DNA of 60,201 bases, from IMG/VR virus record IMGVR_UViG_3300021964_000065, positions 1 to 60,201 of that record; one strand, written 5' to 3'. Source of the stretch: a virus. Its lineage: Duplodnaviria; Caudoviricetes. Of this stretch, positions 1-59,394 are shown in pieces. Both the position numbers and the translations under genes were made by a program. Under the pieces are notes generated by a model, which worked only from the letters and a program-made list of their open reading frames with translations, searched no databases and was not told the DNA's origin. Position 1 is the first letter of the stretch, and every line of letters starts with the position of its first letter.

Positions 1-114
1 ATACACAAACCTAATACATATCAGTTAGTGTATAAAGATTTATACAACGAAGAAAAAACATTAACTGGTACACCAAAGCAAATTATTAATCATATATTAC
101 AACAACAGTTATAA
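1..114 (+). CDS. 3' part of a 48-aa hypothetical protein spanning the circular junction (starts at 60158)
   Basis: After merging the 11-nt terminal overlap, ATG 60158 reads in frame to TAA 112-114 (MAGNKHNTQFAIHKPNTYQLVYKD...). Confidence 0.7.
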   Translation: MHKPNTYQLVYKDLYNEEKTLTGTPKQIINHILQQQL

Positions 115-119
115 CATAT

Positions 120-198
120 ATGATGGTCCTCTACCCCGTTGGCTTCGGCGAGGATAAGGATTAGCTACCTGAAGAACCCGCACAAGGGACGCCATCAT
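120..198 (+). ncRNA. putative structured small RNA 1 (tRNA-sized)
   Basis: GC-rich intergenic island; ATGATGG/CCATCAT closing stem; C(TTCG)G tetraloop; AGG-ATTAGCTA-CCT hairpin; GTCCTCT/AAGGGAC stem followed by G-CCA. Confidence 0.5.
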
Positions 199-213
199 TA
201 TAATATTAAAAAC

Positions 214-285
214 TACAGAGGATTACCGACGGGTAAATAGATACTCGAGTTGAAGTGAGAATAATGTTCCTCCTCCTCTGTACCA
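214..285 (+). ncRNA. putative structured small RNA 2 (tRNA-like acceptor stem plus CCA)
   Basis: Perfect 9-bp TACAGAGGA/TCCTCTGTA stem followed by CCA; internal CGGGTA-AATAGA-TACTCG hairpin. Confidence 0.5.
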
Positions 286-2558: not shown

Positions 2559-3192
2559 TAGAAATACTGAGTATTTAAATCGTAGAAAAATAATTTATAG
2601 GAGAGATCCTGTGAATGATACCCCGACTGAAATTTTTGGTTGGGGTAAATTCTATAAAGAAGGTACGTATGAATGTTATGAGCTGTTTAGAAGTAAAGCT
2701 AAAATAACCACATATAAGTCTTTTAAATGGCATGCACTAGTTCTTTGGTATTTAAATCCTCAGTTAAATAAAAAAGATTTTGAAAATTTAATCTATTTTA
2801 TAGCTGAAAAGCAAAATGGTTTTATTACCTTCACAATTCCCATGCATGCTATACACAATATTATTTATGAAGTTTCAATGGAAGATTTAGAAGATCCCCC
2901 TAAAAACAGAATGAGAAAAATAATATTTAAAGATAATTGTGGATTAACAAGCAAGGAGAAATTAAAGATAGTAGGAACTTTAATGGGAAGAACTAAAAAA
3001 GCAGAAGAAACGGATATTTATGAGGCTATGATAGTACTGCATGACAACTCTAAAAAAATCACAATGAAAAGTTTATCTAAGATATTAAAAGTATCTACTA
3101 GAACGATATACAGAAACATTACAAATGATTTGAACAGAGAAAAAGCATTACTAAATGAAGAAATTCAACATACAAAACTATGCAAGGTTTAA
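2551..3192 (+). CDS. DNA-binding protein with C-terminal HTH (regulator or replication initiator)
   Basis: KKITMKSLSKILKVSTRTIYRNI helix-turn-helix. Confidence 0.65.
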   Translation: MSHRNTEYLNRRKIIYRRDPVNDTPTEIFGWGKFYKEGTYECYELFRSKAKITTYKSFKWHALVLWYLNPQLNKKDFENLIYFIAEKQNGFITFTIPMHAIHNIIYEVSMEDLEDPPKNRMRKIIFKDNCGLTSKEKLKIVGTLMGRTKKAEETDIYEAMIVLHDNSKKITMKSLSKILKVSTRTIYRNITNDLNREKALLNEEIQHTKLCKV

Positions 3193-3892
3193 AAACGATT
3201 TAAACGAAGTAAACCTTGACCTATATAACGATAGAGATAAATTAATAGTAGAAAACATAAAGCTAGTGGAAAACATAGCAAGATCATTTTCAACCATGCA
3301 ACAAGCCTCAGGGGTGTTAGATATAACTGACATGATACAAGAAGGTACTATAGGCTTAATAGCGGCTGTAGACAAAATTGAATGGCAAACTATAAAGCTA
3401 TCTACAAATCCAGAAAGAACATTAAAATCCTTCTTAAGCAAAAGAATTAAAGGTGCTATAAGAAGAGCTATTGATATTAATAGAGGAAATATTAGAATAC
3501 CAGAGCATAAACTTAATGATATGCGCAAAAATTCAGAACAAGAAAAAAAAATGGTAGAAATATTCTTTAATAGTATTTTTCAGAGTATTGATACTATTGA
3601 ATATAATACAAATACAACATACGACATAATTGATCCAGCAAAAGAGTACAATATAGATATATTAAATAAATATTTATTAAGTATAATGGGAGCTCATTTA
3701 TCTATAAAAGAATATGATGTACTCCGTATGAGTTATGGATTAGATTGTGAAAAAATGCAAGCTAAAGAAATTGCAAATAAATTAAAAATAGAAGGAACAG
3801 CCGCTTACGTTAGAATATCTCAAATAAAAAGAGATGCTATTAATAAACTAATAGAAAATGTAGATCCAGCGCAAGTATCTGACTTATTTTAA
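3155..3892 (+). CDS. sigma70-family RNA polymerase sigma factor
   Basis: Region 2 (LIVENIKLVENIAR..DMIQEGTIGLIAAVDK..RIKGAIRRAI), IRIP, and region 4 (E.DVLRMSYGL..KEIA..RISQIKRDAINKL). Confidence 0.9.
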   Translation: MKKFNIQNYARFKNDLNEVNLDLYNDRDKLIVENIKLVENIARSFSTMQQASGVLDITDMIQEGTIGLIAAVDKIEWQTIKLSTNPERTLKSFLSKRIKGAIRRAIDINRGNIRIPEHKLNDMRKNSEQEKKMVEIFFNSIFQSIDTIEYNTNTTYDIIDPAKEYNIDILNKYLLSIMGAHLSIKEYDVLRMSYGLDCEKMQAKEIANKLKIEGTAAYVRISQIKRDAINKLIENVDPAQVSDLF

Positions 3893-14301: not shown

Positions 14302-17300
14302 TTAATTAGCTATTTTTCTTGTAGCTGTTTTTCTTTTTATAGTTTTTCTGTTTATAGTTTTTCTTTTTATAGTTTTTCTGTTTTTTCTTAATGGAGTTTT
14401 AGATTTTTTAGTTTGTTTTTCAATCATACCTAATTCCCATTCTCCCCACCCAAGTGACAATGCTATTGCTTGCCACAATTCTGTTTCAGGTTCCATAGCT
14501 GTTTTTATGTGATCTAGCTTAGTAACAATTCTATCAGCAGGTATATTAGTTCCTGCAGAAATAACTTTTCCTGCGGCTAAAAAAGCTGGGTTTTCTAAAC
14601 TTAAGCCTTCATTAAATACCTTCTTTCGCGATTGCTTATATTTAAAGGTATTACCAGCAGAAATTAATTTTCTTAATTTAGAATTTATAGGAGGCGAAAT
14701 TGAAGTTGCGGCAATAGCTGCTTTAGTGTAGTCAGGTCTATTGCTTTTTGCTTGATCAATAATTTCAAGTATTACATTTTTAACAGTAGAAGCCGCTGCA
14801 CCATAAACACCCATGCCTCTCAAGAAAGTATCAGCAGAGCTGTTTGCTACTCTAAAGTATTTTTCTTTCTTTTCCGGTTCTTCTTCGTCATCAAATAATA
14901 ATGTGAATAATGCAGACTGAAGTGAAGAGAATATAATGTTTTGTATCACACCATAATAAGCAATTTTACTAATATTTGTCTTCCAATCTCCTCTTCCATT
15001 ATATAAATCTAACGCAGCCTTTTTCTGAAGTCGGGCATATTGCATAGGAGTATTTGCAAAAGCTAAAACAACACGTCCTAAACTACCGGCTTGCTCCATA
15101 GAAACTCTATCTGGCCTTGACGATTGTTGTGTTTCTTCAGCAATCTCCTGAAAATCAGTAAATGCCTTTTGTTCTGCCTCTTGTTTGGTTAAACCTTCTT
15201 TAACATACTTATTAATTCTATTACGATAAAATGTAGCACCCCCGGAAGCAATTGCAAAGCTATCCGCTATTTGAGTTGGTGTAAAACCAATTTTTAACAA
15301 AGCATTGAACAACGCTCTAGGTGATCTTTCATTTCCTTTAGTTGCTTTAGCAATTTCATCTGCACTAATGTCTGTTTGCAAACCGCTTCTTCTTTGTTTT
15401 AAGAAATCAGAATTGAATAGGTTAACAAAATCTTTTCTATATTGTCCAAAATTAGCAAGAGCAATTGCTGCGTTAATAGGATTATTATCTGAAAAATTTA
15501 TAAAGTTTACTGTAGACAAAGTTTGTAGAACGGCAGATCTTGCGTTAAAGAACATGATAGCACCCACAGAATTATTCACCCAATCCATCCAAGCTCTTTC
15601 CTGTTTGCTTGTTCCGAATTTTCTATTAACACCTGTTTTCATTCTATAAAGAATGTTTTCAAGAGCCTCAACATATCTTTCGCCGTATAGCCCTCTTAAC
15701 TTTGTAATGTTTTTTTCGGAAAATATTTCATTTACGTTTTCTTGCCATTCAGATAAAAATTCAGATCGTTTTGTTTTATTAATATATCCAATTAAATCGG
15801 TAGTAATATCACCGTCTACCCAATTGTTTTCAGGTTTAGGGTAACCCTCTGAATTTAAAGCCATTAAATTATCAGCAAAGCTTTTAAACTTTTCGTTTTT
15901 ATTTACAGCTTTTATAGCATCATTAACTTCCCCCTTCTTAATGTTTGGTATGTCAAATCCTTGTTTTTGCCACATATACATTCTAAGAGATTGCTCGTTG
16001 GTAAATCCAGATTCGTTTTGTTTTGTTAATCCTCCAGGAACATCTTTTTTGGCACGTTGCTTTAATACAGACCATTCACGCATTGCTCTTTGCTTTTCAG
16101 ACTCATATGCTTGAATACCTCTAGAAAATGGGCGTAATAAGTTTTCACGATACCAATCCATTTGTTGGTTACCTTTTTCGCCTTCAGATAATGTTGTGTA
16201 TAATAAACCTACAAAATCATCTGCTGAATATGGAACAAAAATAGCTCCTTTGCCTTTGCCTTTAGCCATTACTCTAGCCTTAGCAGGGGAGAATCTTTCT
16301 GCCCATTTAACACCAGTAGATTCTTCTAATATTTGGTTAAAACCTTTATTTAGTGATTTAGAAAGTTTAATCTGCCCTTCTTTATATACACTTTTAATAT
16401 TTTTGTATACAATTCCATCTGCTATATCTTGCTTAAAAGCCTCAATAACTAAAGGGTGTTGCATTCTATTTTTACCACTACTTTTTAAGTTTGCGGTTGT
16501 AAGAGCTTTATCAACTCTTTTTGTAACTAAATTTACTTGAGCATTATCAAATTCTTTTTCTAATTGTTCCTGAGATATTTTTCCGTCTAAAAAATTATTA
16601 GAAGCTAATGTTATTTCTAATATTGGATTTTGATGTTCTAAAGTTGTTTCTTTAGTAGAAAGATTTTCAACATACATGCCAGCTTTTGCTATTTTTCTTA
16701 AAGCACCAATTTGGTCATTAGCTAAAAGCTTTATATGAGCTTTACCTTCGTTAATTAAATTATTATCTTTATAATAAACCAATAAATCTAAAATATATTG
16801 AGAAGCTTTTTTTGCTTCATCATTTATTCTGGATGTATATTCACTAAAATTTATTTTTATATCAGTTGTTGATTTATATCTATTAATAGGTGTATTATTT
16901 AAAAATAATTTTTTACCTCTACCTAATGGATTTTTATCTACATTAAAGCCTTCTATGTTATATTTTTTTAATAAAGTTTTAAGTACTTGATTAAAAATAT
17001 GTTGAATTTTTGTTATATTAGGAAGCCCATTAAATGTTGTAATTGCTTTTGATTCATTTATAAACCAATTTAAAATTACTGTTGAGTAATCATTTTTTGA
17101 TGCATTTTTTAAACGATTTTCAAGTAATTTTTTTGATGATTCATAACCAAGCTCTGCAATTTCTTTTTTAAGAGCAATTCCTGTTGCTTGTTTTACTTTT
17201 AAAAAGTAATTTCTAGTTAATTTACCATCAGTATCTAAAACAGCTTTTGAAATTAAATTTTTACCAGTTTCATCCGCTATAAAACTATTTGTTGCATTAA

Positions 17301-20300
17301 TTACATTTTCTAATATTTTATCTAAATTTAAATCTTTTTCAACTTCTTCATTAAATTTATTAAGAATAAAAAAATTTAAATCATCTATAAAGTTTACATT
17401 TTCAGACTCTATATTTTTTAAAATATCACTTTGTAATTTATTTATAATTTTACCAGCAGCAGCTTTTTCTTTTGGGCTTAGACTAAATTTAATATTAGCA
17501 GGATTTGCCTCATAAATTATAGCATCGGATATTAATGGATATTTATTACTTAATTTATCTAAACTTGTTTTATTAAGTATTCCGGCTAGCTCTTGCTGTT
17601 CTAAACCATATTCAGTTTTAGCAGTATTAGCTAAGCTTTTAGAAAATTTAAAACCTTCTGCTCTATCAACTTGCTTAGCTATTAATGATTTAAAGTTTTC
17701 TGGTAATATCTCACCCGTTATTCCAGCTATGTCTTGATACTTTTGAATAACATCAGGATCATTTAATACTTCCATTGTAGCATCAAACGCAATCTCTTCT
17801 GCAATACCCTCAACAATAGCTGTTTTTCTAGCCCCTTTAGTTGATCCACCAACCTCAGCACCTAAAAAATATTTAATCCACTCAGCTTTGTTTATTTTCT
17901 TTTTAACATATATCTTATTACCTTCTGCTGTTTTTTCTCTAACTTGTTTACCATTCTTATCTAAAACAGGCTCGGCGAATTCTTTAAATCTTCTGTTAAT
18001 TAAAGATTGTGGCATTTTGCTATACACAGATTCAAAATTATCTCTTAAGAAAGATTCGTAATCAGCTTGTTTTCCAACAAATTGGAGCATAGGCTTTTTA
18101 AGTTCCGTTCTAAATCTTTTTTGTAATTCAAACCTAAACTTTGGATCTTGAGGATTTGGTAATTTAGTACCAAACGTTTTTACTACCGCATTTTTAACAT
18201 CAGTTATAAGCCCCTCAGGTAGCCCAATTTCTTTTCTTAGGCTTTTTATTTCATCAGCAATCTCAGCTTGCTCTTGAGTCTCTATAGCCTCCTCCGTAGC
18301 TGTATCTGTAACACCTTTGGCCTCTGTTACGTCTACAGTAAATTCAGTATCCAGTATACGATTAGCTGCTTCAATAGCTCTACGGCTTAAAAATGTATTT
18401 ATATAACCAGCGAGTGGAGCACCTTTTGCTTTTTTAGGTGTGTATTCCATTACCATGTCTAAAATGCCACGCTTACCAGTCTCTATTTCATCCTTAAGAA
18501 GCTCATATTCAAACCCAGGAACATCTCTATACTTATTTACTAGCTTGTCTACAATTGGCTTAAACTGGTCAATTATATCCATTGCGCCAGCAGTGCCTTG
18601 TTCTTCGTATATACGTTGAACTTCATCAGATGCTTTTTGTTGTCTTGATTCTTTAATTATTGAATCTAACTCATCAATCTCTTTTTCTTCTTCTGGTTCA
18701 GCAGGTTTTATAATTCTACTAGAGCCTGTTGACAACACATCTTTTGAAAATGTTTGTACCATGCTCCAAGCATCTTCTGCCGAATTAATATTAAAGTTAT
18801 CAGATTCTTCTTTTCCTATAACGGAACCAATAATTGACTTTATATTGGAAGCAAACTTTTGCAAAAAATTAAAATCAGTTTCTTTTATTACCTGTAAATT
18901 AACAGCGTCGGCAGTAAGATTTATTAATTCTTCTGCTTGGGCTTTAGTGCCGTCATATAAAGGTAGTCTATCAAAAATAGAATTATATTGTTTTTGAGTC
19001 AGCTCTTTATTGTCCAGCTTAGTTTTTAATAAAACCTTGTAGTCCTCTTTAATATTATTGAATTGTTCTTCTGTAAAACCTTTCTTTTTAGCTAAAGCGT
19101 GAAAATACTCATGCAAAGTTGTAGAAGGATTTCTAGCTGCAGCTCTTTCAACAATAGTATAGACATTTTCGCTACTATTGAAAGCAAACCCTCCGTCTGC
19201 GTCGTTTTCCCAAATTTCAACTACTTCTTGAGCTTCTTTCTTATTTATAACATTTTTATCTCTTAAAGTAAACAAAGTTTCTTCAGAACTAACAAAATCT
19301 TTTATAGATTCAATCTCATTTGAATAAACATTAACAACCTTATTGGCTAATTTATTTAATGAATTATTTCTTTTAACAGCTTTGTCATTTATCTGGTGTA
19401 TCTTAAAGCCTCTATTAAAATCTCCAGATTTTAAACCTTCTGGTATTTTTAAATTTTTATACGTAGAGCCTTCTTCAATTAATGATTTTTTTTGATTTTG
19501 ATAATCATTATACTCTTTTTCAAGGTCTTTTCTTATTAAATCTTTACTTTGTTCATTTAAATTAGAAGATGCTATTTTATTCCATCTTTGATTAACTTTT
19601 TCAGATTGTCTTTGTGCTTCGAAAACAGCTTTTTGCTCTGATTGAGAAAGATTTAAAAAATTAGTAGCAGTAAAATCTTGATTTAAATTTAATTCTTTTA
19701 TTTTATTTCTAACAGATTTTTTTGCCTCTGCTCTTACATTTATATCTAAATCTAAATTTGTTATCGTATTAGATAACTCTTCAATATCTTTTAAGGTTTT
19801 TTGTATTTTACTTTTATTATTCTTATCGGTTATAACGTCTAAAACATAGGCTTTTGCTAAACTACCTGCCTCAGCTACTTTAAACCCACTACCTATTAGT
19901 GCGCCCTGTGCAGCGGACTCAGTGACTCCTTCAAAAATATTTTTATCTTCACCTAATATTACATTATCAGCTACATTACCTATAAGTGTATTTAAACCCT
20001 CGCCCCCACCTTCTAAAGTGCTTCCTTTAGGAATATCTAAAATAGCTTGCTTAAAAGCTGGTTTAAATCCTTCTTTATAAAACAAAGTATTAGCAGATTT
20101 TAAATCTTTAACTAATTTTAAAGTAGTTAATTCTTCAGTATATTTTTCAGCTGCGCCATATATAGCACTAACTCCTACTTTTTTTAGATCAGTAGTACTC
20201 AGCACTTTTGTATACTCATCTATTTGTTTTTTAATATTTATTTTTTCAAAATCATCTTCTGTTTTATCATAAAGTTTCTGCAATTTAGGCAATTGTCTTT

Positions 20301-21489
20301 CTGCTTCTTTTTTTTCTAATTCAAATTCAGACATTCTTCCTCCATACCCCATTGCAAAAAATAAAGATGGAGCTGCTGCTCCTGAAAAAGCCGCTATTCC
20401 AGACGGCACAAAATTAACAAAAGCATCTGCCCCCCAATTAACTAAATCATTAAGATTTGAAATGCTTTCTACAGGTATTGTTTTAGGTAAAGTTTTTTCA
20501 GCTTCTTTTTTTAATTCCTCTCTGTATTCTAATAAATCTTTTGTATAGGATTTATCTTTTCCAGCTTCGGACTTCAGCATGTCTAAAGTAACTAAAGGCC
20601 CTAAAACTAAATCTGTAGCAGTAGACGCTAAAACATTAGATAGTTGGTCAATATTATTATAAGATCTTTTGAAAGAATCAATAAATTCATTTTTTCTATT
20701 TAAAACAGAAGTATTTTTTAAAAAATTGCTTTCCATTTCAGTGGTTGATTTTAAAATATCATTATATTCAGCTATTTTATTATTATAATCTTGCTTTGAT
20801 ATTTCAATTCCCATTTTTTTATTTTCTTCAAAAAAACTTTTAATATTTTTTAAAGAATTAATATTATCATTTATTTTAGAAAATAATTCATTATTTGATT
20901 TTTGTAAAGAATCTTTTATTGATGTTTCTTTATTAAGTAATTGAACGCGTTGATTATACGGAATATTTTCCATAAAATCACGCTGATTATTTGATATTTT
21001 TTGATTTACTTCTTCAAAATTTAATTGAACAGGCTCAATAGTGTTATTTATTTTAAAATTATCATAATCTTGTTTTTCTGATAATTTAAATTGGCCCTTT
21101 TTAAATCTATTTAATTTTTCTTGTGTAGCCTTTTTATTTTCAAAATCAACATTTAAGGCACTAGCTTTTTCAAATTCTTTTCGTACTGCACTGTATTCTT
21201 CTTCAGAAATTTTTTCTAATTCAATAGTAGTATCTTCTACTGTACCAGTTTTAGGTTGTTCTGGTAAAGCCAATGAAATATCTTCCGATGGTAACTCCGT
21301 AACGGTTGGTTGTATTTCGGGTGTTGCATTTACCTCCGCAGGCACACCCTGATCGATTTCCTCCGGAGGATCTATCTTTCCCGATTCTGCAGAAGTTATT
21401 TCTATAGCGTCAGGATTGTCTTGCAAAAATTGAGTTGAAATATCATCTGGAATATTATAGAACTCATCATTTAATTGAAATCTAGGCAT
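14302..21489 (-). CDS. giant internal virion (ejection) polyprotein with zincin, sigma2-like and nuclease-like modules
   Basis: 2395 aa, last of the internal-protein genes; HEYFH at aa 793; sigma region-2-like segment at about aa 970-1046; helical C-terminus typical of podophage ejection proteins. Confidence 0.75.
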   Translation of the reverse strand: MPRFQLNDEFYNIPDDISTQFLQDNPDAIEITSAESGKIDPPEEIDQGVPAEVNATPEIQPTVTELPSEDISLALPEQPKTGTVEDTTIELEKISEEEYSAVRKEFEKASALNVDFENKKATQEKLNRFKKGQFKLSEKQDYDNFKINNTIEPVQLNFEEVNQKISNNQRDFMENIPYNQRVQLLNKETSIKDSLQKSNNELFSKINDNINSLKNIKSFFEENKKMGIEISKQDYNNKIAEYNDILKSTTEMESNFLKNTSVLNRKNEFIDSFKRSYNNIDQLSNVLASTATDLVLGPLVTLDMLKSEAGKDKSYTKDLLEYREELKKEAEKTLPKTIPVESISNLNDLVNWGADAFVNFVPSGIAAFSGAAAPSLFFAMGYGGRMSEFELEKKEAERQLPKLQKLYDKTEDDFEKINIKKQIDEYTKVLSTTDLKKVGVSAIYGAAEKYTEELTTLKLVKDLKSANTLFYKEGFKPAFKQAILDIPKGSTLEGGGEGLNTLIGNVADNVILGEDKNIFEGVTESAAQGALIGSGFKVAEAGSLAKAYVLDVITDKNNKSKIQKTLKDIEELSNTITNLDLDINVRAEAKKSVRNKIKELNLNQDFTATNFLNLSQSEQKAVFEAQRQSEKVNQRWNKIASSNLNEQSKDLIRKDLEKEYNDYQNQKKSLIEEGSTYKNLKIPEGLKSGDFNRGFKIHQINDKAVKRNNSLNKLANKVVNVYSNEIESIKDFVSSEETLFTLRDKNVINKKEAQEVVEIWENDADGGFAFNSSENVYTIVERAAARNPSTTLHEYFHALAKKKGFTEEQFNNIKEDYKVLLKTKLDNKELTQKQYNSIFDRLPLYDGTKAQAEELINLTADAVNLQVIKETDFNFLQKFASNIKSIIGSVIGKEESDNFNINSAEDAWSMVQTFSKDVLSTGSSRIIKPAEPEEEKEIDELDSIIKESRQQKASDEVQRIYEEQGTAGAMDIIDQFKPIVDKLVNKYRDVPGFEYELLKDEIETGKRGILDMVMEYTPKKAKGAPLAGYINTFLSRRAIEAANRILDTEFTVDVTEAKGVTDTATEEAIETQEQAEIADEIKSLRKEIGLPEGLITDVKNAVVKTFGTKLPNPQDPKFRFELQKRFRTELKKPMLQFVGKQADYESFLRDNFESVYSKMPQSLINRRFKEFAEPVLDKNGKQVREKTAEGNKIYVKKKINKAEWIKYFLGAEVGGSTKGARKTAIVEGIAEEIAFDATMEVLNDPDVIQKYQDIAGITGEILPENFKSLIAKQVDRAEGFKFSKSLANTAKTEYGLEQQELAGILNKTSLDKLSNKYPLISDAIIYEANPANIKFSLSPKEKAAAGKIINKLQSDILKNIESENVNFIDDLNFFILNKFNEEVEKDLNLDKILENVINATNSFIADETGKNLISKAVLDTDGKLTRNYFLKVKQATGIALKKEIAELGYESSKKLLENRLKNASKNDYSTVILNWFINESKAITTFNGLPNITKIQHIFNQVLKTLLKKYNIEGFNVDKNPLGRGKKLFLNNTPINRYKSTTDIKINFSEYTSRINDEAKKASQYILDLLVYYKDNNLINEGKAHIKLLANDQIGALRKIAKAGMYVENLSTKETTLEHQNPILEITLASNNFLDGKISQEQLEKEFDNAQVNLVTKRVDKALTTANLKSSGKNRMQHPLVIEAFKQDIADGIVYKNIKSVYKEGQIKLSKSLNKGFNQILEESTGVKWAERFSPAKARVMAKGKGKGAIFVPYSADDFVGLLYTTLSEGEKGNQQMDWYRENLLRPFSRGIQAYESEKQRAMREWSVLKQRAKKDVPGGLTKQNESGFTNEQSLRMYMWQKQGFDIPNIKKGEVNDAIKAVNKNEKFKSFADNLMALNSEGYPKPENNWVDGDITTDLIGYINKTKRSEFLSEWQENVNEIFSEKNITKLRGLYGERYVEALENILYRMKTGVNRKFGTSKQERAWMDWVNNSVGAIMFFNARSAVLQTLSTVNFINFSDNNPINAAIALANFGQYRKDFVNLFNSDFLKQRRSGLQTDISADEIAKATKGNERSPRALFNALLKIGFTPTQIADSFAIASGGATFYRNRINKYVKEGLTKQEAEQKAFTDFQEIAEETQQSSRPDRVSMEQAGSLGRVVLAFANTPMQYARLQKKAALDLYNGRGDWKTNISKIAYYGVIQNIIFSSLQSALFTLLFDDEEEPEKKEKYFRVANSSADTFLRGMGVYGAAASTVKNVILEIIDQAKSNRPDYTKAAIAATSISPPINSKLRKLISAGNTFKYKQSRKKVFNEGLSLENPAFLAAGKVISAGTNIPADRIVTKLDHIKTAMEPETELWQAIALSLGWGEWELGMIEKQTKKSKTPLRKNRKTIKRKTINRKTIKRKTATRKIAN
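14327..14386 (-). repeat. 15-bp tandem repeat x4 encoding a basic RKTIK/N pentapeptide tail
   Basis: GTTTTTCTKTTTATA units on the plus strand. Confidence 0.85.
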
Positions 21490-53740: not shown

Positions 53741-53991
53741 TCGACAATTATTACATCCTGCTGCTTGATAACTGTGTAGCTTTTACCCTCTAGCACTATG
53801 TCGTGCCCTGCGCGTCTATCATAATATATAACGTCTTCTGGATTTATGCACTCGGTTTTTTCACCGCAGTTAACCACTTTTCCTTTTAAATAACGAATTT
53901 CATTTTTATTATCTTGAATAATGAATCCGTAATCTGTTTTAAGCTCTTCTTTAATCTTAGTTATGATTATATAATTATTTACTGCTTTCAT
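53737..53991 (-). CDS. groES: co-chaperonin GroES
   Basis: 84 aa next to GroEL; G.VV..G....D...Y...AG.........I...DV. Confidence 0.8.
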   Translation of the reverse strand: MKAVNNYIIITKIKEELKTDYGFIIQDNKNEIRYLKGKVVNCGEKTECINPEDVIYYDRRAGHDIVLEGKSYTVIKQQDVIIVE

Positions 53992-55537
53992 TTATTCTAA
54001 TGTTTGAAATTATACAATCTGCTGAAATTATAGTTAATGCAACGGAAACTGCATTAATAAGAGCGGTTTTAGTAACTAGTACTGGATCTATAATACCTTC
54101 CTTAACAAGGTCGCATGTTTTTCCAGTAACAACGTTTATTCCTTTACCCTTGTCAAAATAATGAGGGTAAGCGATACCCGCGTTCTCTAGTATTTTTTTA
54201 TAAGGTGCTTTTATAGCATTATAAAGAATATTCTCGGCAATGTCGCCTTTTAGTTCGTCAGCCGCATTATGTAATGCAACACCCGCTCCTGGAACAATAC
54301 CTTCTCTAAGTGCTGCTTTAACGGCGTGTATGGCGTCCTCTACTCGATCCTTTTTTTCTTTTAGCTCTACCTTACTATTTGCACCTACTTTGATCACACC
54401 GACAGCTCCAGAGAGCATAGCCAAGCGTTGTTCAAGCTTTGTTTTAATAAAACCGTTGCTTTCAGATTTTATTTTCTTTTTAACTATAGAAATTCGCTCT
54501 GAAACATCTTCAGGCATTTTTTCTACAGTTACTATAGTATTGTTGTGATCAGTAACTGCTTTTAAGGCTGTACCTAAACAACTTGGGTCTATAAGGTCTA
54601 AATCATCACCTAATTCTTCTGAAATAACGGTTGCTCCGGTAATTACAGCTAAATCTTCTAGTGTGTCTTGCTTTGTTGCTCCAAAGCCAGGCGGATCTAT
54701 TATATTGACTTTTATATTACCTTTTACTTTATTCATTATTAATGCAGAGAGTGGTTGCTGGTCTAAATTAGCTACAACTAGTAGACTTAGTTTGTTTTTA
54801 ACAACATGCTCTAATACATTCTGTATTTTACGAATATTACTTATCGGGCTGGCAACAATAAGTACAGCTGGATTTTCTAGCTCTACTTTGTTTTTCTCTA
54901 CATCTGTTACTAGATGCTGTGATTTAAGCCCTGAATCAAATTCCACACCGTCTATTATATTAACATGTGTTTCGTCTGTTTCAGATTCTTCCATAAGGAC
55001 TATACCGTCTTTACCTACTTTTTTATATGCTTTAGCAATAACACCGCCCAGCTCATTATCATTATTCACCGATATTGATGCAACTGATTCCAGCATTTTA
55101 TTACTTACTTTAACTTTAGAATCGTCGAGGTACTTTATTACCTTTTCTTTTGCCTTTTCTACACCAGCTTTAATATCCCTTAGATTTATCTTGCCTGATG
55201 CTTCTAAGCATTCTGTTAATATAGAGTGAGCAAGGACAGTACTAGTTGTAGTACCATCCCCTGCTTCTTTAACCGTTTTTTGAGCCGCTTCTTTTATAAG
55301 TGTTGCCCCTATGTTTTCTACAGGGTCGAAAAGCACTACACTGTTAGCTACGGTTACTCCATCTTTTGTTACTATAGGTTTACCTGTAGCATCTTCGTAT
55401 ATTACGCACATACCTGATGCACCTAACGTGGAGCTTACAGCACTAGTTAACTTGTTTATTCCGTTTACAATCTTAGACTTAGCATCATTGCCAAAGTCAA
55501 GATTCTTAATAATCTCACTTGGGTTATTGTATTCCAT
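53975..55537 (-). CDS. groEL: chaperonin GroEL
   Basis: TKDGVTVA, AGDGTTT, PGFG, KDRVEDA..A..AA..EGIVPG, GIIDP..V. Confidence 0.95.
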   Translation of the reverse strand: MEYNNPSEIIKNLDFGNDAKSKIVNGINKLTSAVSSTLGASGMCVIYEDATGKPIVTKDGVTVANSVVLFDPVENIGATLIKEAAQKTVKEAGDGTTTSTVLAHSILTECLEASGKINLRDIKAGVEKAKEKVIKYLDDSKVKVSNKMLESVASISVNNDNELGGVIAKAYKKVGKDGIVLMEESETDETHVNIIDGVEFDSGLKSQHLVTDVEKNKVELENPAVLIVASPISNIRKIQNVLEHVVKNKLSLLVVANLDQQPLSALIMNKVKGNIKVNIIDPPGFGATKQDTLEDLAVITGATVISEELGDDLDLIDPSCLGTALKAVTDHNNTIVTVEKMPEDVSERISIVKKKIKSESNGFIKTKLEQRLAMLSGAVGVIKVGANSKVELKEKKDRVEDAIHAVKAALREGIVPGAGVALHNAADELKGDIAENILYNAIKAPYKKILENAGIAYPHYFDKGKGINVVTGKTCDLVKEGIIDPVLVTKTALINAVSVALTIISADCIISNIRINESSK

Positions 55538-56440: not shown

Positions 56441-56474
56441 TACGAACTTAACACGGATCTCTTTGGATAATATA
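56441..56474 (+). promoter_or_regulatory. early promoter-like repeat 1
   Basis: TACGAACTTAACACG-N9-GGATAATATA. Confidence 0.75.
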
Positions 56475-56520
56475 ATTATGCTCTGACCTCAACCACACCC
56501 ATCGACGGTGGTATATTTTT

Positions 56521-56554
56521 TACAAGGTTAACACGACCTACTTTGGATAATATA
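56521..56554 (+). promoter_or_regulatory. early promoter-like repeat 2
   Basis: TACAAGGTTAACACG-N9-GGATAATATA. Confidence 0.75.
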
Positions 56555-56585
56555 AGTGTAACAAATAATAATTAAAACTATAACT

Positions 56586-56735
56586 ATGTCAACTACTAAA
56601 CAACTTAAAAAATTAATCTCTAAAGTATCAAACAAAAAATATTTAAACTATGAGTATTCTATAGAACATGTTCTTAAAAAATTAAATAAAATATACTTAG
56701 AAGAATTAGAGTATCAAAAGGAATTAAATAAATAA
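56586..56735 (+). CDS. early hypothetical protein
   Basis: 49-aa ORF read manually, after repeat 2. Confidence 0.55.
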   Translation: MSTTKQLKKLISKVSNKKYLNYEYSIEHVLKKLNKIYLEELEYQKELNK

Positions 56736-56739
56736 TTCC

Positions 56740-56772
56740 TACAAAGTAAACACGACCTCAACGGATAATATA
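56740..56772 (+). promoter_or_regulatory. early promoter-like repeat 3
   Basis: TACAAAGTAAACACG-N8-GGATAATATA. Confidence 0.75.
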
Positions 56773-56794
56773 TATGAACATTAAAATAAATAAA

Positions 56795-56938
56795 ATGAAT
56801 AGAGAAGATCAAATAGAAGAATTATACAACCAAGTAATACAAGAGTATTCAGAATTACAATACGAATATTCTGATGACGAACTACAAGATGTAATAATGA
56901 ATATAGTTTATGAAGAACTTGATAAATTACAAAGTTAA
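56795..56938 (+). CDS. early acidic hypothetical protein
   Basis: 47-aa ORF; stop codon lies inside repeat 4. Confidence 0.55.
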   Translation: MNREDQIEELYNQVIQEYSELQYEYSDDELQDVIMNIVYEELDKLQS

Positions 56939-56961
56939 TACGAACCTCAACGGATAATATA
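56928..56961 (+). promoter_or_regulatory. early promoter-like repeat 4
   Basis: TACAAAGTTAATACG-N9-GGATAATATA. Confidence 0.75.
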
Positions 56962-56983
56962 TATGTAACTAAATATAACAAAC

Positions 56984-57148
56984 ATGAAAATAGACTTAAC
57001 ACAAAAAGAAATAGATAGAATATACTTTACATTAAAAGATTATATTAAAATATCAAACGATGTTGATTACCTAAATGAATTAACTGAAGTTAATAAAGAA
57101 GAATTTAAAGTAGAATTAGAATTAATTGAAAAGTTTAGTGAACTATAA
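56984..57148 (+). CDS. early hypothetical protein
   Basis: 54-aa ORF (MKIDLTQKEI...). Confidence 0.55.
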   Translation: MKIDLTQKEIDRIYFTLKDYIKISNDVDYLNELTEVNKEEFKVELELIEKFSEL

Positions 57149-57282
57149 ATAGACACTTAAAATTACAAACTAAAATAACAAATATGACTAAAAATACTAA
57201 GTAAAACAAGGGTTTAAGAGACATTCACACACTGAACTATACCTATACACTTAAAAACATTAACAAATAAACAACACACCTT

Positions 57283-57471
57283 ATGACTACTGAAACATAC
57301 AACAAGATACAAAAGAGAATAACAAGACAAAACCAACGTACTCAAGACCTTATGTCTAACTATGTACGACCGATTAAGAGAGTAACAAGAGTAACATTCT
57401 CACGTAAAGCATTGTGGGATAATATAGACACAACAAAAGTATACTACTCTTATACTAAACTACAAGCTTAA
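57283..57471 (+). CDS. early hypothetical protein
   Basis: ORF; stop codon inside repeat 5. Confidence 0.6.
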   Translation: MTTETYNKIQKRITRQNQRTQDLMSNYVRPIKRVTRVTFSRKALWDNIDTTKVYYSYTKLQA

Positions 57472-57494
57472 TACGGCTTTAAATGGATAATATA
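57461..57494 (+). promoter_or_regulatory. early promoter-like repeat 5
   Basis: TACAAGCTTAATACG-N9-GGATAATATA. Confidence 0.75.
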
Positions 57495-57495
57495 A

Positions 57496-57693
57496 ATGAA
57501 TATAAAAACAAACACAATGAAATATAACACTGCATTACACAACTACTTCAACCAACATAAAAACCTCAACAAGTTATTCAATGAGATGAATGATATAGAT
57601 ATTGAAATTGATCCACTACATAATAAAAAACTATACTTACAAAGTCTAGGTTTCAATCAAGAAAAAATAAACCAACTATTAAAAATAAAATAA
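57496..57693 (+). CDS. early hypothetical protein
   Basis: ORF immediately after repeat 5. Confidence 0.55.
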   Translation: MNIKTNTMKYNTALHNYFNQHKNLNKLFNEMNDIDIEIDPLHNKKLYLQSLGFNQEKINQLLKIK

Positions 57694-57694
57694 T

Positions 57695-57874
57695 ATGTCA
57701 CAACTAACAAGACTACACGAACTGAATGGCAAATTAGATATGCTACAAGATCTTAAAATATCTGGTCTAGGTTTATCGCTTGACCAACAAGAAAAGTTGC
57801 TATACACACACCAACAAGTACTTGACCAACGTTTTGAATTACTAAAAGAAATTAAAAAAGAATATATACTATGA
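57695..57874 (+). CDS. early hypothetical protein
   Basis: 59-aa ORF read manually. Confidence 0.55.
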   Translation: MSQLTRLHELNGKLDMLQDLKISGLGLSLDQQEKLLYTHQQVLDQRFELLKEIKKEYIL

Positions 57875-57984
57875 CTATAATAAACAAATATACAGGACGT
57901 GACGTCTCAAGAGAATTCCTAGCCTTAATGGAAGGTATAATAACAAACGAAGAATTTGAACTAATAACATTAACACTAAAATAA
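57871..57984 (+). CDS. early hypothetical protein
   Basis: 37-aa ORF with ATGA overlap. Confidence 0.5.
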   Translation: MTIINKYTGRDVSREFLALMEGIITNEEFELITLTLK

Positions 57985-57989
57985 ACACT

Positions 57990-58319
57990 ATGAGCTATAC
58001 AAATTACAAAATAGACGAACTAGCGCAAGATTTTTCTGAAGATGCATGGAATGCATTTCACAATGCAGAAATAAATGACCAAGATGATCTATATGATTAT
58101 AGACACCAATGGGTTGACAACAAAGTAATATACACACACGATTGCAAAAGATATACTGACGATTTAAACTATGATATATTTGAAGAGCATGACTTATTTG
58201 GCCGTGCAGAAAACTGGTCGCAAGCAGCATATAATGCTATCTACGACGCTCTAGATGAGTCCGATGACACTGTCTCTTGGTATGATATGGAACAGGTATT
58301 GCAAGAAGCCACAAACTAA
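57990..58319 (+). CDS. Ocr-like (T7 gp0.3-like) acidic DNA-mimic anti-restriction protein
   Basis: EINDQDDLYDYRHQWVDNKVIYTHD aligns with recalled Ocr [26 protein letters not shown]; similar size and acidity. Confidence 0.65.
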   Translation: MSYTNYKIDELAQDFSEDAWNAFHNAEINDQDDLYDYRHQWVDNKVIYTHDCKRYTDDLNYDIFEEHDLFGRAENWSQAAYNAIYDALDESDDTVSWYDMEQVLQEATN

Positions 58320-58325
58320 ATAACA

Positions 58326-58451
58326 ATGGAAGAAATAACATTTGAACCAATTTACTGTAACTCTTGCAACAATACAGATCTTACATACAACCAAAGTATT
58401 ATGGATTCATATTGTGCAAACTGTGGCGAATGGCAAGGCGGTGAATATTAA
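58326..58451 (+). CDS. small zinc-ribbon protein
   Basis: CNSC...CANC, 41 aa. Confidence 0.6.
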   Translation: MEEITFEPIYCNSCNNTDLTYNQSIMDSYCANCGEWQGGEY

Positions 58452-58457
58452 TACAAT

Positions 58458-58491
58458 TACAAACTAAATACGAACAACAATGGATAATATA
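58458..58491 (+). promoter_or_regulatory. early promoter-like repeat 6
   Basis: TACAAACTAAATACG-N9-GGATAATATA. Confidence 0.75.
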
Positions 58492-58740
58492 TACGAATCA
58501 GAAATAACGACTAGTCTTCCTCTAGGGCAGCTTCCAATAATGACTAACACATGGATATTTTATGGTACTGACCATAGCGGAATCAAAACAATACACCACA
58601 TTAAACAATGTAAACGCCCTGAAGCAACAAGCGAATACAAAGAAATGATGCACTTACTAGAAAATAATACTTATTACACAACAGGATATATGACTAGTAA
58701 AGCATGGAATAAAGATCACCAATATATAAAAGTAATATGA
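58480..58740 (+). CDS. early hypothetical protein (true start probably downstream, near 58540)
   Basis: ORF; the first ATG lies inside repeat 6. Confidence 0.55.
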   Translation: MDNIYESEITTSLPLGQLPIMTNTWIFYGTDHSGIKTIHHIKQCKRPEATSEYKEMMHLLENNTYYTTGYMTSKAWNKDHQYIKVI

Positions 58741-58844
58741 AAGAATGCTCTTACTGTAACGAACCTTTAAACGAAGACGAACAAATATATTTTAATCGCG
58801 TTGTAGATGAAATGCCTCTATGCGCACAATGCTTAACATTATGA
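58737..58844 (+). CDS. small zinc-finger protein
   Basis: CSYC...CAQC, 35 aa, ATGA overlaps on both sides. Confidence 0.55.
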   Translation: MKECSYCNEPLNEDEQIYFNRVVDEMPLCAQCLTL

Positions 58845-59026
58845 ACACACTAATACAACAAATAGCAGATAAGTGCATCGAAGAAATTGATGAACACATT
58901 GAAAATACAATTCACTGGCAATTTGAATTTGATAATGAAATTATTGAAGGCGATGAATTAAACGAATTACAATTAAAAATTAAACAACAAATATTATTTA
59001 CATTAATTAAAAAAGTAACAAAATGA
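58841..59026 (+). CDS. early hypothetical protein
   Basis: ORF with likely start 58841. Confidence 0.6.
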   Translation: MNTLIQQIADKCIEEIDEHIENTIHWQFEFDNEIIEGDELNELQLKIKQQILFTLIKKVTK

Positions 59027-59370
59027 CACACATTGAACAACTAACAAAAATATTAAAAATAGATAAAGTAACAGAAGACTACGGAAGATATTGCAATTTG
59101 CATATCTACACACAAACAACTGCGGATGGTTATGAAGTCTATGTAGTATCACACGATCCATCTAATATGGACTGGGAAAATGATGTATTCTATTACAAAC
59201 CAGACTTTGATATTTTAATAGAAACTATATCAGAATTAGATGAAGATGCTATTGTATACTGCTCAGATGTAGATGAATTCTTTCCTGAGTATGAAGTTGA
59301 AAACTTTATTGAATGCAATGATGAAGAATACAAAGTTGATGATGGAGTAATTAATTATTTTACAAAGTAA
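59023..59370 (+). CDS. early highly acidic protein
   Basis: D/E-rich, 115 aa; stop codon inside repeat 7. Confidence 0.65.
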   Translation: MTHIEQLTKILKIDKVTEDYGRYCNLHIYTQTTADGYEVYVVSHDPSNMDWENDVFYYKPDFDILIETISELDEDAIVYCSDVDEFFPEYEVENFIECNDEEYKVDDGVINYFTK

Positions 59371-59394
59371 ACACGAAGCATAGCGGATAATATT
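59361..59394 (+). promoter_or_regulatory. early promoter-like repeat 7
   Basis: TACAAAGTAAACACG-N9-GGATAATATT. Confidence 0.75.

What the first reader, a model, noticed from the sequence alone, without database searches (positions are those of the whole stretch)
18352..18582. Sigma70 region-2-like domain embedded in the giant virion ejection protein: a candidate injected sigma factor
Seen: about aa 970-1046 of the 2395-aa protein reads IIDQFKPIVDKLVNKYRDVPGFEYELLKDEIETGKRGILDMVMEYTPKKAKGAPLAGYINTFLSRRAIEAANRIL. Known: sigma70 region 2 follows LI..N..LV..IA.KY...G....DL.QEG..GL..A...F....G..F.TYA...I...I.R, and the phage's own stand-alone sigma at 3155 shows that pattern. An acidic linker resembling a sigma finger and a ~230-aa module follow. 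Inference: the virion delivers a sigma factor with its DNA so that host core RNAP can read phage-specific early promoters before any phage gene is expressed. This would be an alternative to the virion RNAPs of N4 and crAss-like phages; I know of no described example.
Basis: partly seen in the sequence, partly recalled or inferred. Interest (0 to 1): 0.92.

Follow-up and report, generated by a model that had tools for sequence, protein, structure and literature searches.

The report
Sigma-like domain inside giant phage protein
A giant late protein of an uncultured marine phage carries a real but very diverged copy of the sigma-factor domain that docks on bacterial RNA polymerase, so the phage may deliver a polymerase-targeting module with its DNA, though only that one domain, not a whole sigma factor, is there.

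Summary

**It is most likely a true sigma domain 2.**
- An AlphaFold model (pLDDT 82) matches sigma-2 structures almost exclusively. Best Z is 7.6, and 14 of the 18 best rows name a sigma factor.
- A family profile puts sigma factors on top, in register, but only at E 0.14-1.4.
- Language-model features give Sigma70_r2 for 27 of 30 named hits.
- Against this, no Pfam Sigma70_r2 match was found.

**It is not a whole sigma factor.** An acidic disordered linker follows, then a confidently folded basic domain (pLDDT 92) with no known fold and no sigma-3 or sigma-4 match.

**Context.**
- The roughly 335-aa cassette is the conserved centre of more than 777 giant proteins.
- K-F-S-K-S-like motifs bracket it, and a conserved HExxH precedes it.
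- Virion packaging, cleavage and polymerase binding are not shown. The predicted complex with beta-prime gave only weak support.
- One relative keeps the phage's early promoter-like array without the cassette.

The scan noted the same idea earlier on at least seven other genomes. Verdict: observation confirmed, interpretation partly supported.

The parts
14302..21489 (-). Giant ORF, 2395 aa (P0001). It is a multi-domain late-operon protein lying between structural genes and the endolysin.
18343..18636 (-). Sigma-2-like domain, aa 952-1049. The N-terminal border is fuzzy, because a long helix starts near aa 933.
   Evidence: AlphaFold model. VIA-align top rows are sigma domain 2, model range about 20-120. 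Profile hits are in register. ESM features.
18352..18582 (-).
18250..18342 (-). Conserved F-T-x-D-V-T-E-A motif followed by an acidic, disordered linker, aa 1050-1080.
   Evidence: pLDDT below 50 at model residues 123-150. Charge counts. F1050 invariant and D1053 in 38 of 40.
17650..18249 (-). Domain D2, aa 1081-1280. It is basic, mostly helical with a small sheet, confidently folded, and has no known fold.
18640..18654 (-). Degenerate border motif (K-E-S-R-Q here). It aligns with R/K-F-S-K-S of homologues at the N-terminal edge of the cassette.
17635..17649 (-). K-F-S-K-S motif at the C-terminal edge of the cassette, aa 1281-1285.
17476..17490 (-). K-F-S-L-S motif, aa 1334-1338.
16354..16368 (-). 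K-L-S-K-S motif, aa 1708-1712, just before the conserved C-terminal module.
19099..19113 (-). HExxH (H-E-Y-F-H), aa 793-797, a candidate zincin metallopeptidase motif.
   Evidence: Conserved as a single copy in 23 of 24 full-length homologues. H793, E794 and H797 are invariant in A4. The fold was not tested.
14440..16353 (-). Conserved C-terminal module, aa 1713-2350. It has one strongly hydrophobic helix near aa 2181. Its function is unknown.
14305..14427 (-). Very basic C-terminal tail, aa 2355-2395 (18 K/R, 1 D/E).
3155..3892 (+). Stand-alone phage sigma factor (regions 2 and 4), 245 aa.
56441..59394 (+). Array of seven promoter-like elements: TTACAA, 3-4 nt, TTAAYACG, 8-9 nt, GGATAATATA. 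All are on the + strand at the head of the early arm. Six match the strict pattern, at 56453, 56533, 56752, 56940, 57473 and 58470. A seventh near 59361 has one mismatch.

Best explanation
**Shown or well supported**
- aa about 952-1049 of the giant protein is a true but very diverged sigma-70-family domain 2. In sigma factors this domain grips the beta-prime clamp helices of core RNA polymerase and reads and opens the -10 element.
- With an acidic disordered linker (aa 1050-1080) and a basic orphan-fold domain D2 (aa 1081-1280), it forms a cassette of about 335 aa.
- The cassette is the conserved centre of a large family of giant phage proteins. K-F-S-K-S-like motifs bracket it, and a conserved HExxH lies about 150 aa upstream.
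- No sigma-3 or sigma-4 domain is present.

**Inferred**
- The giant is a polyvalent protein that is packed in the virion and ejected with the DNA.
- It is cut at the K-F-S-K-S-like motifs, perhaps by its own zincin.
- The freed cassette docks through its sigma-2 domain on host core RNA polymerase.

**The mechanism I commit to**
- The cassette acts as a minimal, T4-gp55-like specificity subunit. The sigma-2 domain would read a -10-like element, and the basic D2 would supply the second DNA or polymerase contact. This would redirect host polymerase to phage DNA early in infection.
- A role as a mere competitor of host sigma is the next most likely.
For: **Fold**
- The AlphaFold2 model of aa 930-1300, built from a 40-sequence alignment, has mean pLDDT 82.3, with 81-92 over the domain.
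- An unbiased VIA-align search of 48,161 chains gave 6pmj_F sigma-28 (Z 7.6, rmsd 2.6, 77 aligned), 8x6g_H SigB (Z 7.4), 8b3z_A SigE N-domain (Z 7.4) and 1sig_A sigma-70 (Z 7.4).
- 14 of the 18 best rows, and at least 21 of the 50 rows shown, name a sigma factor in the title. All of them align to model residues about 20-120.

**Sequence**
- The A1 profile against PDB sequences returned 5 sequences at E up to 10. Three are sigma factors, aligned in register over regions 2.1-2.3: sigma-K at E 0.14, 8b3z at 0.3 and RpoS at 1.4.
- hhalign against the phage's own sigma family gave P 0.045 in the same register.
- ESM-Atlas features: 27 of 30 named hits carry PF04542, score 0.96.

**Residues**
- The aromatic residue aligned with the Y of sigma-K's T-Y-A is Y or F in 38 of 40 members. 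That position is sigma-70 Y430 by my recalled numbering.
- Polar residues on the 2.4-like helix are kept: N1031 in 35 of 40, R1037 in 39 of 40, E1040 in 36 of 40. This is more than a pure core-binding decoy would need.

**Selection and context**
- The cassette shows 41-62% column identity, while its flanks show 10-20%.
- 777 giant homologues of 1317-4192 aa were found, and 464 cluster representatives. Only 30 proteins of 204-650 aa were found, mostly on contigs of a few kb.

**Border motif [KQR][FLM]S[KLR][STN]**
- 33 were seen against 3.9 expected in 24 homologues, concentrated at three alignment positions.
- It lies within 12 aa of the N border in 53 of 231 proteins and of the C border in 82 of 180. 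Background is 0.009 per 25 aa.
- The HExxH is conserved in 23 of 24.

**Gene position**
- The gene lies at the end of the structural operon, beside the endolysin.
- It is syntenic with a 3694-aa 'structural protein' of Flavobacterium phage elemoE and a 3860-aa gene of MW202828.1.

**Predicted complex with Flavobacterium beta-prime 150-420**
- The verdict was weak support: score 0.38, best of 3 controls 0.01.
- That mark was reached by 58 of 80 solved complexes and 2 of 110 mismatched pairs. At 0.60 or under it was reached by only 7 of those 80 and by both mismatches.
- The runs agree in at least 47% of contacts, and the partner's pLDDT is at least 69.
- Sigma-2/clamp-helix complexes are solved, so the pass may be from memory.

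**No phage polymerase seen**
- PF00940 found nothing in 5 related records, but no positive control rang.
Against: - **No Pfam match.** There is none for the whole protein, for aa 940-1070 at E up to 10, or among the 25 families listed for the 40 family members.
- **Sequence-level statistics are not significant on their own.** They are E 0.14 and P 0.045.
- **The structural score is modest.** Z 7.6 is in the range the tool warns can be a common helical arrangement. Foldseek gave nothing at E up to 0.001.
- **The fold is a prediction.**
- **D2 has no sigma-3, sigma-4 or helix-turn-helix match.** Best Z was 4.6 and best Foldseek E 0.43.
- **Virion location is not shown.** There was no PHROG match, and tblastn of the cassette and of the whole protein against 50,697 phage records found nothing.
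- **The two deposited relatives lack it.** With portals 43-53% identical, they have no cassette, no C-terminal module and no stand-alone sigma.
- **The cassette is facultative.** It is absent by HMM from 4 of 15 related records. One of them has a giant about 95% identical in two of the flanking segments but with a swapped centre.
- **G003 argues against a promoter-reading role.** It is 89% complete and carries five copies of the same promoter-like motif, yet has neither a detectable cassette nor a stand-alone sigma.
- **The border motif was defined after looking at the family.** Cleavage is untested.
- **The aromatic pair is not kept.** The W433/W434 pair of sigma-70 (numbering recalled) is K and F/Y here.
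Confidence: 0.4

Rival explanations
1. Host shut-off decoy. The injected or late-made sigma-2 domain occupies the beta-prime clamp helices and blocks host sigma factors. It starts no transcription itself. The phage's stand-alone sigma or host sigma then reads phage promoters.
For: - Only the core-docking domain of sigma is present, with no sigma-4.
- The region-2.2-like segment D-E-I-x-T-G-x-R-G is strongly conserved.
- The complex score with beta-prime is weak but above the controls, 0.38 against 0.01 (with the caveats given there).
- G003 keeps the promoter-like array without the cassette.
- The cassette co-occurs with the stand-alone sigma: 9 of 11 cassette-positive records against 0 of 4 cassette-negative ones.
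Against: - The 2.3/2.4-like helix, which contacts DNA in sigma factors, is at least as conserved as the 2.2-like part. That includes the polar residues N1031, R1037 and E1040.
- A conserved basic domain D2 travels with the sigma-2-like domain in many members.
- A decoy would also block the phage's own sigma.
Confidence: 0.2
2. One reading: a complete sigma factor (sigma-2, sigma finger, promoter-reading C-terminal module) is injected and alone directs host core to phage-specific early promoters.
For: - The domain order is sigma-2 fold, then acidic linker, then a second conserved domain.
- Seven long, strand-specific promoter-like elements head the early arm. By my recall they do not match the Bacteroidota -33/-7 consensus.
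- No phage polymerase was found (no positive control).
Against: - D2 matches no sigma-3 or sigma-4 fold.
- D2 is replaced or diverged in several giants that keep the sigma-2-like domain: L028, L037 and L038.
- G003 has the promoter-like array without the cassette.
- Packaging is not shown.
Confidence: 0.07
3. Not injected. The giant is a late-made polyprotein that acts inside the producing cell. Its sigma-2 module would serve late transcription or couple polymerase to packaging, and the rest would serve assembly.
For: - The gene is in the late operon.
- There is no direct evidence of packaging.
- T4's sigma-2-only late factor gp55 exists, and a link between gp55 and terminase is cited in passages of PMC6669764.
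Against: - The size, the syntenic position of giant 'structural protein' genes in relatives, the HExxH plus repeated border motifs, the hydrophobic helices and the very basic tail all fit the polyvalent, ejected-protein pattern described in PMC5512222 (abstract and passages).
- The phage already has a stand-alone sigma for later classes.
Confidence: 0.13
4. Chance likeness. The domain is a generic helical bundle that AlphaFold and the aligner place near sigma-2, and it has no relation to sigma factors or to RNA polymerase.
For: - There is no Pfam match.
- E-values are not significant.
- Z is under 8, and cyclin/TFIIB folds also appear lower in the list.
Against: - Four methods agree on the same family and register. 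They are only partly independent, because the hhalign comparison reused the A1 profile.
- The 18 best structural rows are almost all sigma-2.
- A shuffled sequence reaches 0.95 or more in the Atlas about once in 100.
Confidence: 0.12

Closest known systems
Sigma-70 family, domain sigma-2 (regions 1.2 and 2.1-2.4; Pfam PF04542). Nearest rows: sigma-28 6pmj_F, SigB 8x6g_H, SigE 8b3z_A, sigma-70 1sig_A, pro-sigma-K 8vjl_B.
   Same: - The predicted fold is the same.
- The conserved pattern is in register: D-x-I-x-x-G-x-x-G-hydrophobic, then Y/F, then G-x-P/K-L/F-x-x-Y.
- An acidic linker follows the domain.
   Different: - It is below every Pfam threshold.
- It is embedded at aa 952-1049 of a 2395-aa protein rather than being free-standing.
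- It has no sigma-3 or sigma-4.
- It is followed by an orphan basic domain.
T4 gp55, the sigma-2-only late sigma factor (structure row 7d7d_F; that chain F is gp55 is my recall)
   Same: - It is a phage factor made of a diverged sigma-2 alone, which needs other parts for the second contact.
- 7d7d_F aligns at Z 6.5, rmsd 3.1, 90 residues.
   Different: - gp55 is a small free protein made in the cell for late genes. It works with gp33 and the sliding clamp (recalled).
- Here the domain is inside a giant late-operon protein, and partners are unknown.
Polyvalent proteins of phages and conjugative elements (Iyer et al. 2017, PMC5512222; abstract and passages read)
   Same: - It is a giant multi-domain protein.
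- It has a zincin-type HExxH proposed for self-processing.
- Its domains would jump-start transcription or modify the host.
- Some homologues carry Zeta-toxin/kinase domains.
   Different: - The word 'sigma' does not occur in that paper's main text. The supplements could not be opened.
- None of Pfam's models matched the giant.
Virion RNA polymerases: N4 gp50 and crAss-like phi14:2 gp66 (recalled)
   Same: A giant virion protein would solve the problem of transcribing phage DNA before any phage gene is expressed.
   Different: - Those are whole polymerases.
- Here only a sigma-2-like docking and specificity domain is seen, and it would have to use host core.
- No polymerase domain was found (no positive control). 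The C-terminal module was not folded.
The phage's own stand-alone sigma (window 3155-3892) and similar free phage sigma factors (PHROG 351)
   Same: - It belongs to the same protein superfamily.
- It co-occurs with the cassette in 9 of 11 cassette-positive records.
   Different: - The stand-alone one has regions 2 and 4 and hits Pfam.
- The two are only remotely alike (hhalign P 0.045).

Membership tests
Sigma-70 family (PF04542 Sigma70_r2) | Match to the Pfam Sigma70_r2 model at or near its gathering score | tested here: not met
   - There was no match for the whole protein at E up to 1.
- There was none for aa 940-1070 at E up to 10.
- PF04542 is not among the 25 families listed for the 40 members of A1.
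- The six-frame search of the genome finds only the stand-alone sigma.
Sigma-70 family (PF04542 Sigma70_r2) | Sigma-2 fold (helical domain of regions 1.2-2.4) | tested here: met
   The predicted model was searched against 48,161 chains. The best rows are sigma domain 2, at Z 7.6-5.5, rmsd 2.5-3.8 and 74-92 aligned residues. This rests on a prediction, not a solved structure.
Sigma-70 family (PF04542 Sigma70_r2) | Profile-level sequence similarity in register with regions 2.1-2.4 | tested here: inconclusive
   Sigma factors are the top hits in the right register, but at E 0.14, 0.3 and 1.4. hhalign gave P 0.045. ESM features gave 27 of 30 named hits with PF04542 at score 0.96.
Sigma-70 family (whole factor) | Region 4 / sigma-4 helix-turn-helix (PF04545), or sigma-3 | tested here: inconclusive
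   D2 was folded alone (pLDDT 91.6). No sigma row appeared among the VIA-align rows (best Z 4.6) or the Foldseek rows (best E 0.43). There was no Pfam hit.
Sigma-70 family (whole factor) | Binds the beta-prime clamp helices of core RNA polymerase | tested here: inconclusive
   The predicted complex with RPOC_FLAJ1 150-420 gave weak support: 0.38 against a best control of 0.01. No experiment was possible.
Sigma-70 family (whole factor) | Confers promoter-specific initiation | not testable with these tools
   This needs in vitro transcription.
Polyvalent proteins (Iyer et al. 2017) | Several unrelated domains in one giant protein of a phage | tested here: met
   The protein has an HExxH region, a sigma-2-like domain, D2 and a conserved C-terminal module. 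Homologues carry extra kinase domains.
Polyvalent proteins (Iyer et al. 2017) | Zincin-like metallopeptidase domain | tested here: inconclusive
   The HExxH is conserved in 23 of 24, but there was no Pfam or PDB match for that region. The fold was not predicted.
Polyvalent proteins (Iyer et al. 2017) | Delivered into the host with the DNA | not testable with these tools
   The only evidence is gene position and synteny with genes annotated 'structural protein'.
Virion RNA polymerases (N4-like single-subunit) | Polymerase catalytic domain (PF00940) | tested here: inconclusive
   There was no match in 5 related records, but the search also rang in no control genome.

The most novel reading that the evidence does not exclude
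The giant protein is ejected with the DNA and cut at its K-F-S-K-S-like sites. The freed cassette of about 335 aa (sigma-2 plus acidic linker plus the new basic domain D2) then acts as a two-part minimal sigma factor. It loads host core RNA polymerase onto the 40-nt promoter array at the leading end of the genome before any phage gene is expressed. This would be a third solution, beside N4-type and crAss-type virion polymerases, to the problem of the first transcript.
Probability: 0.15. Interest if true: 0.9.

Novelty: new variant of a known kind. Interest (0 to 1): 0.7.

Why it matters
Phages either rely on host sigma for their first transcripts or bring a whole polymerase in the virion. A sigma-family docking domain built into a giant virion-type protein would be a cheaper route: bring only the specificity or docking part and use the host's catalytic core.

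The family is large. It has 777 or more proteins and 464 cluster representatives, many from marine samples. It has no cultured member in the phage collection searched.

The hypothesis can be tested directly. There is a defined cassette, a defined candidate promoter array, and a natural cassette-minus relative (G003).

The cassette also contains a confidently folded domain with no known fold. The repeated border motif could mark a new processing site.

Tried and rejected
**Searches that gave nothing**
- Single-sequence Pfam and PHROG scans of the giant and its pieces gave nothing useful.
- Megablast and tblastn of the gene, the cassette and the whole protein against 50,697 phage records found no match.
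- Foldseek of the two-domain model against PDB was not significant, with sigma factors scattered at E 0.8-1.6. A flexible linker makes whole-model comparison weak.
- D2 was compared with PDB by VIA-align and Foldseek, with BFVD, and with the ESM Atlas. The only match was an uncharacterised protein of an uncultured virus.
- The whole-protein profile A4 against PDB gave only weak coiled-coil hits, weak sigma hits and one ribosomal-protein hit, and nothing significant for the HExxH region or the C-terminal module.
- No tRNA or Rfam family was found in the window.
- PF00940 found nothing in 5 records, with no positive control.

**Alternative cassettes and free-standing forms**
- Pfam and PDB scans of the alternative central cassettes of L014, L020 and L045 gave nothing.
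- Local hhalign hints that some 'cassette-negative' giants may hold very diverged versions: L045 at P 1.3e-4, L014 at 0.001 and L023 at 0.003. 'Absent' therefore means not detected.
- Only 30 short proteins matched, mostly on short contigs. P0248 lacks a start methionine and is a fragment.

**Ideas I rejected or left open**
- I considered that the early elements are ordinary sigma-70-type promoters. The consensus scan found 33 sites against 28.1 +/- 5.0 in shuffles, so it has no power here.
- I noted a likeness of TTAATACGA to the start of the T7 promoter. That sequence is recalled, and I could not test it.

**Literature**
- Searches, and passages read, found no injected or virion-borne sigma domain.
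- Supplements are closed. The domain tables of PMC5512222 could hold something the main text does not.
Full report
**1. The observation**

The window is a whole IMG/VR virus record of 60,201 bases, estimated 94% complete, with 32.6% G+C. The ORF at 14302..21489 on the minus strand encodes 2395 aa, stored as P0001. The stand-alone sigma at 3155-3892 is real: Sigma70_r2 at E 3.9e-5, Sigma70_r4 at E 8.9e-4, and PHROG 351 at E 2.4e-22.

**2. Is it sigma region 2?**

Ordinary annotation says no.
- There is no Pfam Sigma70_r2 hit for the giant or for aa 940-1070 at E up to 10.
- PF04542 is not among the 25 families listed for 40 family members scanned one by one.
- There is no useful PHROG hit.

Deeper tests say yes.
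- I collected homologues: 777 giants at E up to 0.001 and 464 cluster representatives. From them I aligned 40 diverse copies of aa 930-1300 as alignment A1.
- The A1 profile against all PDB sequences returned five sequences at E up to 10. Three are sigma factors aligned over regions 2.1-2.3 in register: pro-sigma-K 8vjl_B at E 0.14, 8b3z_A at 0.3 and RpoS 5h6x_A at 1.4.
- hhalign against the phage's own sigma family (A2) gave the same register at P 0.045.
- AlphaFold2 on A1 gave mean pLDDT 82.3. It shows a helical domain at model residues about 20-120, a disordered stretch at 123-150, and a second domain at 150-355.
- Foldseek on the whole model was not significant.
- VIA-align against 48,161 representative chains put sigma domain 2 on top: 6pmj_F sigma-28 (Z 7.6, rmsd 2.6, 77 aligned), SigB, SigE, sigma-70, AlgU and so on. 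14 of the 18 best rows, and at least 21 of the 50 rows shown, name a sigma factor. TFIIB and cyclin folds come lower.
- ESM-Atlas features of aa 940-1070 gave PF04542 clusters for 27 of 30 named hits at score 0.96.

The Z values are modest for a helical domain, and the sequence statistics alone are weak. The agreement of the methods on one family and one register makes a true, very diverged sigma-2 the best reading. I put it at about 0.85.

**3. What follows the domain**

- After the 2.4-like helix comes a conserved F-T-x-D-V-T-E-A motif. F1050 is invariant.
- Then comes a disordered linker. Counted over aa 1051-1080 it has 10 D/E against 1 K/R here. It is net negative in 39 of 40 members.
- Domain D2 (aa 1081-1280), folded alone with 25 sequences, gave pLDDT 91.6 and pTM 0.85. 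It is net positive in 39 of 40 members.
- D2 has no match in PDB by VIA-align (best Z 4.6, none at 5 or more) or by Foldseek (best E 0.43). In BFVD it matches only an uncharacterised protein of an uncultured virus. It has no Atlas lead.
- So there is no recognisable sigma-3 or sigma-4, and the protein holds a sigma-2 domain rather than a whole sigma factor.
- Sub-profiles show that the sigma-2-like part is more widespread than D2. L028, L037 and L038 keep the first at 144-147 bits and lack the second. Many representatives match only query residues about 8-145.

**4. Anatomy of the giant**

- Among 24 full-length homologues, two blocks are conserved: aa 950-1290 (41-62% column identity) and aa 1700-2350 (41-70%). 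The rest lies at 7-21%.
- A single HExxH (aa 793-797 here) is kept in 23 of 24.
- A pentapeptide of the type K-F-S-K-S recurs at three aligned positions: just before the cassette, just after D2, and just before the C-terminal block.
- By the pattern [KQR][FLM]S[KLR][STN], 33 were seen against 3.9 expected from shuffles.
- Over all stored homologues the pattern lies within 12 aa of the N border in 53 of 231 and of the C border in 82 of 180. Background is 0.009 per 25 aa.
- I wrote the pattern after seeing the family, and the sequences are related, so these numbers overstate independence.
- A G003-type giant with a different central cassette keeps F-S-K motifs at both edges of that cassette.
- The C-terminal block has a hydrophobic helix near aa 2181, and the protein ends in a very basic tail.
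- This is the pattern of polyvalent proteins with zincin-mediated processing described by Iyer et al. (PMC5512222; abstract and passages read).

**5. Is it a virion or ejection protein?**

This is not shown.
- The gene ends the leftward late arm: TerL, portal, structural-protein PHROGs, then the giant, then the endolysin.
- Portal relatives infect Flavobacterium, Cellulophaga, Tenacibaculum and Maribacter.
- In Flavobacterium phage elemoE and in MW202828.1 the syntenic place holds giant genes of 3694 and 3860 aa. The first is annotated 'structural protein'.
- Those two giants share nothing detectable with P0001, and both genomes also lack a stand-alone sigma.

**6. Distribution**

I examined 15 related virus records, including the window. 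They were chosen for contig length from 42 loci found with four queries.
- The cassette profile hits 11 records.
- The stand-alone sigma profile hits 9, all of them cassette-positive.
- The four cassette-negative records have no sigma. Fisher p is 0.011. Kinship and incompleteness (68-100%) make this a clade pattern and not proof of coupling.
- One cassette-negative giant (L014) is about 93-95% identical to a cassette-bearing one in two of the three flanking segments and 59% in the third, so the centre has been swapped.
- Free-standing copies were not found.

**7. Promoters**

- The early arm begins with seven plus-strand copies of a roughly 40-nt element: TTACAA, TTAAYACG, 8-9 nt, GGATAATATA.
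- The core pattern occurs 6 times in the window. It occurs 5, 5, 3, 2 and 2 times in five cassette-positive relatives, always on one strand and clustered. The reversed control pattern gives 0 hits.
- In G006, the one record with terminal repeats, the copies lie within about 1 kb of the genome end and inside the repeat.
- The element also occurs 5 times in G003, which has neither cassette nor stand-alone sigma. This one genome is the best evidence against the cassette being needed to read the array.

**8. Polymerase docking**

The sigma-2-like part (A1 residues 15-125) with Flavobacterium johnsoniae beta-prime 150-420 gave weak support.
- The score was 0.38 (runs 0.38, 0.39 and 0.04), with a best control of 0.01.
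- The mark was reached by 58 of 80 solved complexes and 2 of 110 mismatches. At 0.60 or under it was reached by only 7 of those 80 and by both mismatches.
- Contacts agree in at least 47%, and the partner's pLDDT is at least 69.
- Similar complexes are solved, so memory may explain the pass.

**9. Reading**

- Shown: a sigma-2-like domain, an acidic linker, an orphan basic domain, strong selection on the cassette, border motifs, an HExxH, and a late-operon position.
- Inferred: packaging, ejection, cleavage and docking on host core.
- I favour a gp55-like minimal specificity subunit, because the 2.3/2.4-like helix is as conserved as the core-binding 2.2-like part. That includes the Y430-equivalent aromatic (38 of 40) and polar residues. 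A sigma-competitor role is close behind.

**10. Novelty**

- My literature searches and readings found no sigma domain in a virion or polyvalent protein.
- 'Sigma' has 0 occurrences in the main text of PMC5512222. Its supplements were closed.
- The scan itself noted the same idea on at least seven other genomes, and an ECF-type case in another phage.
- On this genome it also noted the promoter array, the border motifs and the zincin.
- I reached the HExxH motif before reading any of those notes. I looked for border motifs after the notes had mentioned conserved linker motifs. I found the promoter array before the notes on this genome.

Noticed in passing
window 56441-59394 (+): Seven one-strand copies of a roughly 40-nt promoter-like element (TTACAA, TTAAYACG, 8-9 nt, GGATAATATA) head the early arm. 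The core pattern is conserved and clustered in six related records. It lies next to and inside the terminal repeat of G006. Its start resembles the recalled T7 promoter start TAATACGA. What reads it is open.
   Followed up: partly
window 17635-17649, 17476-17490, 16354-16368, 18640-18654 (-): K-F-S-K-S-like pentapeptides recur at module borders of the giant and its homologues. They are candidate processing sites.
   Followed up: partly
window 17650-18249 (-): Domain D2 folds with pLDDT 91.6 but matches no solved fold. It is a conserved basic orphan domain.
   Followed up: yes
window 14440-16353 (-): A C-terminal module of about 640 aa is the most conserved part of the family. It is present even in giants without the sigma-like cassette.
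   Followed up: partly
L014 giant (aa about 746-1564) against P0159: The two giants are 93-95% identical in the first 85 aa and the last 890 aa, and 59% identical in the segment before the cassette. Their central cassettes are different, which suggests cassette exchange inside the giant gene.
   Followed up: partly
homologues P0102, P0104, P0105, P0106, P0112, P0117: Some giants of the family carry Zeta-toxin / AAA_33 / chloramphenicol-phosphotransferase-like kinase domains (PF06414, PF07931, PF13671) in the precomputed Pfam column.
   Followed up: no
G001:C1:8520-9255: The stand-alone sigma of this 99%-complete relative is split into two pieces (profile positions 1-112 and 91-245, with 2 TAA inside the second match). 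This could be a frameshift, an error or a broken gene.
   Followed up: no
window 1-254: This is a G+C-rich non-coding stretch in an A+T-rich genome. ARAGORN and Rfam find nothing in it.
   Followed up: partly
window 53975-55537 (-): The phage encodes a GroEL-type chaperonin (PHROG 5725, E 1.3e-133), as do its relatives elemoE and MW202828.1.
   Followed up: no
whole window: Among the ORFs I scanned there was a primase-helicase, ribonucleotide reductase, thymidylate synthase and MazG, but no DNA polymerase or RNA polymerase. Not all ORFs were scanned, and the record is 94% complete.
   Followed up: partly
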